DNA of 64,000 nucleotides from Flectonema sp. DT1601 (taxonomy: Eukaryota): contig OZ025801.1 in the NCBI GenBank assembly GCA_964019425.1, positions 868,001 through 932,000 of the forward strand, given 5' to 3'. Below, piece after piece: positions 9,553 through 10,830 of this stretch. Below the pieces are notes generated by a model that was not told the DNA's origin, ran no database searches, and was given only the letters and a program-made list of their open reading frames with translations. The position numbers and the translations under genes were made by a program. Within the stretch, counting starts at the first letter, position 1. Every line of letters starts with the position of its first letter.

Positions 9553-9640
9553 TTAACTGGAATGAAGTCCCTTAGAACTTACTGATGAAGGCCTAAGAGG
9601 GACAAATTAAGGCCTGAAACTACGTATTCCACAGTTGGAA
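9553..9640 (+). ncRNA. Hammerhead-ribozyme-like motif (copy A)
   Basis: CTGATGA (9582-9588), stem II AGGCC/GGCCT, GAAA (9616-9619), then CTACGTA; loop GAGGGAC complementary to upstream GTCCCTT; stem I is not well formed in this copy. Confidence 0.6.
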
Positions 9641-9720
9641 CAGCAGAACAATGTGTTTTTATGATTTCCCCCTTTTTTTATATTTTAATTTAGTGCACTT
9701 TTTTATATAAACTAATATTT

Positions 9721-10085
9721 TAACTTACAAGCACGCGATGCTTTGTTTAAATTATCGTCTAAACTGGACAGTTTTACAGATCCTAAAAGAAGTATTACAC
9801 CAGAGTGCTGTGGGTCTTTGAGAAGTTTGTTATCTAATGCCAGAAGTTTGGTTAAATTTGATTACGAAATACTACGCGGAATTATGGAAGAGTTGCAATT
9901 TGAGAGTGAAGGATGTTCCCTTGATTATAATATCAACCAATATTTTTTTTGCCGGATATCGTAAACCACTATCATTTTGTAAGTTATATATACAAGAAGC
10001 TCTAAACAAGAAAAAGGAAGATTTGCAGTCAAAATTAGAAACAACGAAATTTCACTCATGCAATGATGATTTTGAATTTATAACT
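9721..10085 (+). pseudogene. Frameshifted remnant copy of the 260-aa repeat unit
   Basis: LFKLSSKLDSFTDPKRSITPECCGSL...IQEALNKKKEDLQ...DDFEFIT split over two frames. Confidence 0.8.
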
Positions 10086-10163
10086 GCCCTCGAGAAGGAC
10101 TAGGACGAGATTGGTGCCGAGTCCGCTGACATCGAAGGAGAGGAAGACATCGAGGAATACTAA
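10084..10163 (+). pseudogene. Alpha-tubulin C-terminal fragment (retrocopied 3' end)
   Basis: Translates ALEKD*DEIGAESADIEGEEDIEEY*, matching the alpha-tubulin tail ALEKDYEEVGAESAD..GEEDVEEY; GC-richer than flanks. Confidence 0.85.
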
Positions 10164-10310
10164 AACACTCGGAATCGAACAAAAATAATCTCTCTCTTTA
10201 TTTTATTTTCCTCTTTATTTTTTTACCACAAGCTGAGTTCCAGCGCAAAATTGACCAGACTGTCAAGGACGCGTTGTTAAGAACCGCTTTTGAAACTGTT
10301 TTACAAGAAA

Positions 10311-10549
10311 TTTGGAATAAAGTCCCTTAGAACTTACTAAGAGGGACAAGTAGTTTTAGATTAAGGCTCCTGAAACTACTATTTTTTCGGAACAGCAAAA
10401 CAATTCATTTGATGTTTTTACTCTTTCTCAAATACATTTTTTTAATCTCATGTACTAACTAGCTGGTTTGTCCTTTTTTACTTTATCATTTTTTACTGAT
10501 GAAGTCCTGAGAAGGACAGGTAGTGTGAGATTAAGAATTGTGTTTTTAT

Positions 10550-10583
<34 letters not shown>

Positions 10584-10830
10584 CATATTTGATTTAGTGT
10601 GCCTATCTATAATAAACTCATATTCTAGCTGGTTTATTCCTTTTTTTTTTTGTTTCATCCCTTTTTACTGATGAAGGCCTAAGAGGGACAAGTAGTATAA
10701 GATTAAGGCTACTGAAAACTACGTATTCCACAAGTGTTTTATGTAACAGCAGAACAATTGTGTGTTTATGACCTTTCTTTTTTTTATATTTTGAATTAGT
10801 GTGACAATCTTATAATAAACCCATATTCTA
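10311..10830 (+). repeat. Three further degenerate copies (B ~10314, C ~10491, D ~10661) of the hammerhead-like repeat
   Basis: Shared CTGATGAAG(g/t)CCT(a/g)AGA(g/a)GGACA..GTAGT..TaAGATTAAG and, in B and D, GAAA(A)CTAC...AACAGCA(g/a)AACAAT; B lacks most of the CTGATGA core. Confidence 0.75.

What the first reader, a model, noticed from the sequence alone, without database searches (positions are those of the whole stretch)
9553..10830. Four hammerhead-like repeats behind the giant ORF, possibly with the cleavage strand inside loop II
Seen: copy A has CTGATGA-AGGCC...GGCCT-GAAA-CTAC. Copies B-D carry an extra loop segment, GTAGTA-TAAG in D. Its GTAGT pairs with ACTAC after GAA (stem III; AGTAGT/ACTACT in B) and its TAAG pairs with CTTA before CTGATGA (stem I), giving a GUA cleavage site. 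Loop GAGGGAC also pairs with upstream GTCCCTT. Each copy is crippled differently: A lacks exactly GTAGTATAAG, B lacks the core, C lacks GAAA, D has GAAAA. Known: hammerheads mark Penelope-like element repeats and retrozymes and can act as dimers. Inference: a non-standard nested or trans-acting hammerhead topology outside types I-III; A (enzyme) and D (substrate) might complement each other.
Basis: partly seen in the sequence, partly recalled or inferred. Interest (0 to 1): 0.8.

Follow-up and report, generated by a model that had tools for sequence, protein, structure and literature searches.

The report
Rewired hammerhead ribozymes of Penelope retroelements
These are four broken copies of a rare, knotted form of the hammerhead RNA, whose intact form is predicted to cut itself; they lie just behind a fragment of a Penelope-type jumping gene in a single-celled eukaryote, and the same design appears intact elsewhere in this DNA and at the tails of related worm jumping genes that were reported to lack a normal hammerhead.

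Summary
Copies A-D share its layout, including the 5' pseudoknot helix and AA / UUAA linkers. None is intact; a type I reading has no stem I; A+D complementation is unlikely. New: (1) the copies start 54 nt behind a 5'-truncated Penelope-like element whose full-length relatives have an N-terminal GIY-YIG, CxC, RT and a Josephin-like tail (Naiad/Chlamys type); (2) an intact CSG hammerhead of different sequence lies in the same window (37254-37320, minus; 7 of 13 shared pairs changed on both sides; 0 in 150 shuffled windows); (3) five nematode Naiad consensus sequences in Craig et al. 2021, a clade reported to lack canonical hammerheads, end in complete CSG motifs (read by eye). I found this link in no paper searched. 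Earlier scan notes tied Naiads to rewired hammerheads on other genomes. Cleavage is untested.

The parts
8740..9504 (+). 5'-truncated 3' end of a Penelope-like element ORF (end of RT thumb plus Josephin-like domain), fused in frame to the upstream repetitive gene; the last ~20 codons of the parent ORF are missing
   Evidence: 85% identical over 260 aa to P0150; 87% to residues 1087-1340 of full-length P0182; fold hint
9558..9631 (+). Copy A: pseudoknot helix, stem I 5' strand, CUGAUGA (9582-9588), perfect stem II, GAAA (9616), stem III 3' strand, possible 7-bp closing helix; lacks the whole cleavage block
9719..10106 (+). Decayed piece of the upstream repetitive gene, lying between copies A and B
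10313..10380 (+). Copy B: pseudoknot strands, cleavage block with GUU, linker and GAAA block; lacks CUGAUGA and stem II 5' strand
10470..10535 (+). Copy C: CUGAUGA (10496), cleavage block with G at position 17, linker; GAAA block deleted
10657..10730 (+). Copy D: all three blocks in order C (10668), S (10692-10701; predicted cut between 10697 and 10698), G (10714); extra A in GAAAA, 2-nt bulge in stem II, shortened pseudoknot
10800..10870 (+). Remnant of a fifth repeat unit (spacer only, no core); B-C-D-E spacing 170, 172, 203 nt
37254..37320 (-). Copy F: intact type-CSG hammerhead of another sequence family (pseudoknot 10 bp, stem I 5, stem II 5 with G10.1-C11.1, stem III 3 plus A15.1-U16.1, GUA site, ATTA linker; predicted cut between 37275 and 37274)

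Best explanation
The repeats are decayed copies of a type-CSG, non-circularly permuted hammerhead that likely forms the 3' end of a Naiad/Chlamys-type Penelope-like retroelement, and the intact form would cut its own RNA at GUA^UAAG inside what is loop II in a classic hammerhead. Shown by sequence: block order C-S-G, stems I, II, III, a 5' pseudoknot helix, the position behind the element's ORF, and a lesion in every one of A-D. Inferred: in an intact element the pseudoknot forms first, the core closes only when the GAAA block is transcribed, and the cut leaves the RT-coding RNA with a 2',3'-cyclic phosphate and the next unit with a 5'-OH end, trimming tandem or read-through transcripts to unit length, the role proposed for ordinary PLE hammerheads (PMC4209133). 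A 5'-truncated copy landed in a repetitive host gene, its tail was repeated in tandem, and the copies decayed independently; A-C cannot fold the core and D is probably inactive.
For: Layout matches the two published CSG ribozymes element by element: 5' helix, stem I strand, CUGAUGA, stem II, helix partner, AA, GUWG-UH, stem I partner, UUAA, stem II partner, GAAA-CWAC. Stems I 4-5, II 5-6 (A) and III 4-5 bp in the CSG reading; shuffle tests. Intact copy F in the same window: of 15 core positions compared, 13 are paired in both and 7 of these differ on both sides; 0 hits with a pseudoknot of 7 bp or more in 150 shuffled windows. Parent element: P0182 has GIY-YIG (241), CxC (570), GxKF (606), DK (688), RT; its cluster has 24 members and a sister family 59. 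Five of five nematode Naiad 3' ends seen whole in supplement parts 14-15 of PMC8557442 are complete CSG motifs with different, fully paired stems (read by eye). Two of 19 metagenome loci with related RTs carry a related S-G-C motif 3' of the ORF on the sense strand.
Against: No copy among A-D is intact, so the family's own active sequence is inferred from several copies. A-D have A10.1-U11.1 where the published CSG descriptor demands G-C, and 11-12 nt between stems II and III where it allows 10. No DNA of other copies of this element could be fetched (no genome held), so the tie between this ORF and this ribozyme rests on one locus plus analogy. Copy F has no PLE protein remnant beside it. Eleven other RT loci with 390-1650 nt of 3' sequence gave no convincing motif, and the descriptor that found the two S-G-C loci gives 0.25-0.35 hits per shuffled set. 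No cleavage or expression data.
Confidence: 0.82

Rival explanations
1. The motif is a type-CSG hammerhead, but it belongs to a separate non-autonomous tandem repeat (a retrozyme-like unit of 170-200 nt) that only happens to lie next to the PLE fragment.
For: B, C, D and the remnant E repeat at 170, 172 and 203 nt; a piece of host gene separates A from B; copy F has no PLE protein nearby; non-LTR retrozymes are tandem hammerhead repeats (10.64898/2026.07.22.740005, passages).
Against: A begins 54 nt after the PLE stop on the same strand, the place where nematode Naiads carry the same type; the same preprint derives such repeats from PLE ends, so the two readings share an origin.
Confidence: 0.1
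2. Copy D is a live ribozyme: the extra A is an assembly error in a homopolymer or is tolerated.
For: D is the only copy with all three blocks and passes the tolerant search; the lesion is one base in an A run.
Against: D also has a bulged stem II, a pseudoknot cut to 5 bp (-7.0 against -12.5 kcal/mol) and a competing AGUAGU/GCUACU hairpin in its predicted fold; neighbouring long ORFs are open, which argues against frequent indel errors.
Confidence: 0.1
3. A (enzyme) and D (substrate) are a selected pair that cut in trans or across 1.1 kb of one transcript.
For: A lacks exactly the cleavage block, and A's strands pair perfectly with D's block (4 + 1 + 4 pairs).
Against: Such short arms bind weakly (best duplex -6.3 kcal/mol, and not the active one); D's block is tied up in D's own hairpin; all intact relatives are single motifs; B and C carry unrelated lesions typical of decay.
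Confidence: 0.03
4. An ordinary type I PLE hammerhead cutting at GAAACUACGUA^, with later insertions in loop II.
For: A and D have GAAA(A)CUACGUA, which resembles the short stem III of minimal PLE hammerheads (PMC4209133); the following UUCC can pair with an upstream GGAA.
Against: Stem I next to the core is 0-1 bp and stem III 1-2 bp in this reading; the GGAA lies 20 nt from the core; B lacks the GUA there.
Confidence: 0.02

Closest known systems
Type-CSG hammerhead ribozymes CSG-1 and CSG-2 (Eckert et al. 2023, PMC10085705; seen: introduction, sections 13, 15, 16, first part of the discussion, supplement passages)
   Same: Block order C-S-G; 5' helix joining the stem I and stem II sides; AA before stem III, UUAA between stems I and II, GUWG/CWAC stem III.
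   Different: Published set is 2 unique sequences (5 total) from soil DNA with no genetic context; here the motif is in a eukaryotic chromosome behind a retroelement ORF. A-D have A10.1-U11.1, a shorter stem I (4 bp) and are broken; F has G10.1-C11.1 and a 3-bp stem III.
Naiad/Chlamys N-terminal EN+ Penelope-like elements (Craig et al. 2021, PMC8557442; seen: sections 6 and 9, passages, supplement parts 14-15 and passages)
   Same: N-terminal GIY-YIG, CxC, GxKF, DK motif, 5' truncation; C-terminal Josephin-like domain as in Chlamys-1_cBra; ribozyme at the 3' end.
   Different: Reported to lack canonical hammerheads and not reported from euglenozoans in that paper (0 hits for Eugleno/Discoba). 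The parent element here has no CxxC inside the GIY-YIG core (Chlamys-like) and DKG rather than DKA.
Type I hammerheads of canonical PLEs (Cervera and de la Pena 2014, PMC4209133; seen: parts 1-2 of 4)
   Same: Same catalytic core and same place in the element's terminal repeat; tandem, often degenerate copies.
   Different: Order C-G-S with no pseudoknotted core; often need dimers, whereas the CSG motif has a full stem III as a monomer.
Type-SGC hammerheads (HRIMA-1 and variants, PMC10085705) and the S-G-C motifs seen here in L017, L019 and in cnidarian and cephalopod Naiads
   Same: Cleavage block joined to the GAAA block by a short UUA-type linker; circular permutation of CSG.
   Different: CUGAUGA comes last; in L017, L019 and the animal Naiads the stem II 5' strand is separated from CUGAUGA by an extra helix and a hairpin (read by eye).

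Membership tests
Type-CSG hammerhead | Blocks in order C, S, G | tested here: met
   D: 10668, 10692-10701, 10714; F likewise
Type-CSG hammerhead | Core CUGAnGA, GAAA and UH all present in one motif | tested here: inconclusive
   Met in F; in A-D only across copies: A lacks UH block, B lacks core, C lacks GAAA, D has GAAAA
Type-CSG hammerhead | Stems I, II, III flanking the core | tested here: met
   A-D family I 4-5, II 5-6 or bulged, III 4-5; F 5, 5, 3
Type-CSG hammerhead | Helix joining the stem I and stem II sides | tested here: met
   7 bp in A and B, 5 bp in D; 10 bp in F
Type-CSG hammerhead | G10.1-C11.1 as in the published descriptor | tested here: inconclusive
   A-U in A, C and D (still a pair); G-C in F and the five nematode motifs
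Type-CSG hammerhead | Covariation of the stems | tested here: met
   7 of 13 shared pairs changed on both sides between the A-D family and F; further double changes among nematode Naiads (by eye). No statistical covariation test was run.
Type-CSG hammerhead | Self-cleavage at the UH site | not testable with these tools
   Needs an in vitro assay
Type I (CGS) hammerhead | Stem I next to the core with the strand after GAAA-stem III-UH | tested here: not met
   0-1 bp; no Rfam hammerhead hit at E up to 10
Naiad/Chlamys PLE (parent element) | N-terminal GIY-YIG before RT | tested here: met
   P0182 residues 241-290 (Pfam E 0.007, weak), P0195 E 2.4e-05 above cut-off; the window holds only the 3' fragment
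Naiad/Chlamys PLE (parent element) | CxC motif, GxKF/Y and DK motif | tested here: met
   P0182: CxC 570, GQKFR 606, DKG 688
Naiad/Chlamys PLE (parent element) | Insertion in fingers (long RT A-B spacing) | tested here: inconclusive
   74 aa in P0182 against 81-88 in Naiad-like P0162 and P0156; no canonical PLE was measured alongside
Naiad/Chlamys PLE (parent element) | Placement in the N-terminal EN+ clade on an RT tree | not tested
   No named reference PLE proteins were held as usable sequences

The most novel reading that the evidence does not exclude
Non-circularly permuted hammerheads (CSG and its S-G-C relatives with extra helices) are the native 3'-end ribozyme of the whole Naiad/Chlamys clade from protists to animals. 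The clade did not lose hammerheads; it rewired them early, 'rare' type CSG is in fact common in eukaryotic genomes, and the two published soil sequences are themselves tails of such elements.
Probability: 0.5. Interest if true: 0.82.

Novelty: new member of a known kind. Interest (0 to 1): 0.64.

Why it matters
Type CSG rested on two similar metagenome sequences with no known host or role, and its discoverers called the evidence for biological relevance weaker than for SGC. A second family in a protist genome and five nematode families with fully compensated stems give it real covariation and a home. It also bears on a stated puzzle: Naiad/Chlamys elements were said to spread without canonical hammerheads, which was used to suggest that hammerheads may be dispensable passengers of PLEs. 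If these elements carry a rewired ribozyme at the same place, self-cleavage is likely a conserved step of PLE replication, and this can be tested with 70-nt RNAs. Rfam misses these motifs, so many are probably unannotated.

Tried and rejected
No whole genome is held, so genome-wide copies could not be collected. Sequencing runs: none was listed; no RNA holder listed. Exact-pattern scans for the repeat: 0 in metagenome and viral contigs. Degenerate CSG patterns in viral contigs gave 7 and 7 stretches; none of the 14 had matching stems by eye and they read as coding chance matches. A tighter pattern gave 0 in prokaryote genomes; this covers one stem III type only. RT alignment against viral contigs: 0 of 11 candidates confirmed. 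Rfam found no hammerhead in 8000-13000, in 35500-41000 or in the 19 RT loci. Ordinary folding does not show the structure (z-scores +0.6 to -2.7), as expected for a double pseudoknot. Of 19 RT loci, 3 had no in-frame stop before the contig end, 3 had 102 nt or less after it, 2 had the S-G-C motif, and 11 gave nothing convincing with a relaxed core. The model of the C-terminal domain was poor (pLDDT 47); its best matches were Josephin and C39 peptidases at E 0.002 or worse, and a sequence search of solved structures gave nothing below E 0.18. An apparent compensatory change in C's pseudoknot was not counted, because C's 5' strand may not be the same position as A's. The repetitive gene had no outside relatives. 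Papers: searches for hammerhead + type-CSG (1 paper), Naiad + hammerhead + ribozyme (3 listed), non-circular + hammerhead + Penelope since 2023 (2), Penelope-like/Chlamys/ribozyme/permuted since 2022 (12), diplonemid + hammerhead (4); none showed the link in listing or in the passages read; subscription journals are not covered. The supplement of the 2026 preprint could not be seen. Only parts 14-15 of 59 of the Craig supplement were read whole; Chlamys 3' ends were seen only as scattered passages and no CSG motif was recognised in them.

Full report
Setting. The window is from a protist with long unbroken genes; the katanin gene at 11193 has its best named relatives among kinetoplastids, and relatives of the retroelement come from Flectonema and Diplonema, so the host is likely a diplonemid-like euglenozoan. 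No whole genome is held.

The observation. Each lacks something different: A the 10-nt cleavage block, B the CUGAUGA core, C the GAAA block (and it has G at the cut), D has GAAAA, a bulged stem II and a weaker pseudoknot. B, C, D and a coreless remnant repeat at 170, 172 and 203 nt. Counting pairs outward from the core, the nested reading gives stem I 4-5 bp, stem II 6 bp in A, and stem III 4-5 bp beyond A15.1-U16.1. The type I reading gives stem I 0-1 bp. Shuffling D's loop reproduces both stems in 74-592 of 200,000 trials. A tolerant search finds D alone, and nothing in 60 shuffled windows. Rfam has no hit.

What the fold is. Eckert et al. 2023 (PMC10085705) split the hammerhead into blocks C (CUGAnGA), G (GAAA) and S (site); types I-III are CGS, GSC and SCG. 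Their alignment has a 5' helix pairing just after stem II, then AA, GUUG-UC, the stem I partner, UUAA, the stem II partner and GAAA-CAAC. The window's repeats have the same series with GUAG-UA and GAAA-CUAC. Their search pattern required G10.1-C11.1 and at most 10 nt between stems II and III, so the A-D family (A-U, 11-12 nt) would have been missed.

A second, intact copy. Scanning the window for all six orders gave one intact hit, on the minus strand at 37254-37320. It is CSG with a 10-bp pseudoknot, stems of 5, 5 and 3 bp, a GUA site and an ATTA linker. The loose descriptor gave 2 hits in 30 and 1 hit in 150 shuffled windows, none of the latter with a pseudoknot of 7 bp or more. Against the A-D family, 13 of 15 core positions are paired in both, and 7 of those differ on both sides. 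No PLE protein remnant lies beside it; a 28S rRNA fragment follows about 220 nt downstream.

What it belongs to. The last 254 codons before copy A are 85% identical to the C-terminus of P0150, an RT of a 24-member cluster; a sister cluster has 59 members. Full-length member P0182 reads GIY-YIG, CxC, GxKF, DK, RT, then the domain found in the window. A weak model of that domain matches Josephin and C39 peptidases best (E 0.002, pLDDT 47). This is the N-terminal-endonuclease plan of Naiad/Chlamys elements, and one Chlamys type has a C-terminal Josephin-like motif (PMC8557442). The window holds a 5'-truncated copy fused to a repetitive gene, part of which resumes at 9719. Copy A starts 54 nt after the stop.

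Independent relatives. Craig et al. report that Naiads and most Chlamys lack canonical hammerheads but list 8 'half core' cases with the second half of the core 35-50 nt away; the CUGAUGA-to-GAAA gap is 39 nt in D and 36 in F. In their consensus file I read by eye the 3' ends of the five records that end in parts 14-15: the record before Naiad-2_Nbra, Naiad-2_Nbra, Naiad-3_Nbra, Naiad_Hcon and Naiad_Hpol. All five are complete CSG motifs: pseudoknot 11, 12, 9, 13, 13 bp; stem I 5, 5, 5, 6, 5; stem II 5, 5, 4, 5, 5; stem III 10, 5, 5, 9, 7; sites GUC or GUU. Three share the window's CUUA/UAAG inner stem I and differ by double changes at the fifth pair. Passages from cnidarian and cephalopod Naiads show order S-G-C with an extra helix and hairpin between CUGAUGA and stem II. 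The same design is in 2 of 19 metagenome loci with related RTs, L017 and L019, on the sense strand behind the ORF; the descriptor alone gives 0.25-0.35 hits per shuffled set, so those two rest also on extra helices read by eye. Eleven other loci with 3' sequence showed nothing convincing.

How it likely works. Shown: anatomy, position and lesions. Inferred from hammerhead chemistry (my knowledge) and from the role proposed in PMC4209133: the intact motif folds as a monomer once the GAAA block is made and cuts at GUA inside loop II, giving unit-length element RNA from tandem or read-through transcripts. At this locus the copies are most likely dead. A's deletion spans the predicted cut, which would fit an imprecise template jump across a cleaved RNA, but one case cannot show this. 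Trans rescue of A by D is unlikely with 4-5 bp arms.

Novelty. The topology is in print; its presence in a eukaryotic chromosome and at the tail of Penelope-like elements was not found in five paper searches. Four earlier notes of this scan link rewired hammerheads to Naiads on other genomes; I saw them after and do not count them as evidence. A word search for the CSG nested form returned nothing. Verdict: new members of a rare known kind, with a new and testable biological home; interest 0.64.

Noticed in passing
window 37254-37320 (-): Intact type-CSG hammerhead of a second family; the best candidate in the window for a cleavage assay.
   Followed up: yes
window ~36740-37040 (-): 28S rRNA fragment (Rfam E 1.7e-14) beginning about 220 nt downstream of copy F, just before the TAAGGTAGCC stretch that I recall as the R2 insertion region; some Chlamys families target 28S rDNA. 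Could mark an rDNA-targeting element's 3' junction.
   Followed up: no
window 35948-40812: Stretch bounded by 46-nt inverted repeats, with an inner 57-nt inverted pair (36132-36188 / 37623-37679), 125-nt tandem repeats at 39660-40240 and several tRNA-like pieces; looks like a nest of DNA transposons and SINE-like repeats holding copy F.
   Followed up: no
window 3-8736 (+): Large AT-rich repetitive gene (units of about 260 aa, two exact 1220-nt duplications that break the frame) with two RxxxxH motifs resembling HEPN nucleases (recalled motif); no outside relatives found.
   Followed up: partly
window 19236-21575: Reverse transcriptase and RNase H-like ORFs of a second retroelement (weak Pfam hits) lying between two near-identical nucleotide-sugar transporter genes (16743, 25488); a tRNA-Arg at 21502-21575.
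   Followed up: no
window 28304-34318 (+): 2004-aa ORF with a non-LTR-like C-terminal region at its start, tandem repeats, a ubiquitin-protease domain and two RNase H1 N-terminal domains; probably a retroelement-derived mosaic.
   Followed up: no
L017:3462-3575 and L019:2520-2630 (+): S-G-C hammerhead-like motifs with an extra helix and hairpin between CUGAUGA and stem II, behind Naiad/Chlamys-like RTs.
   Followed up: partly
P0155, P0166: Relatives of this RT that carry a ubiquitin-protease (UCH) domain; with the Josephin-like tail this suggests repeated capture of deubiquitinase-type domains by these elements.
   Followed up: no
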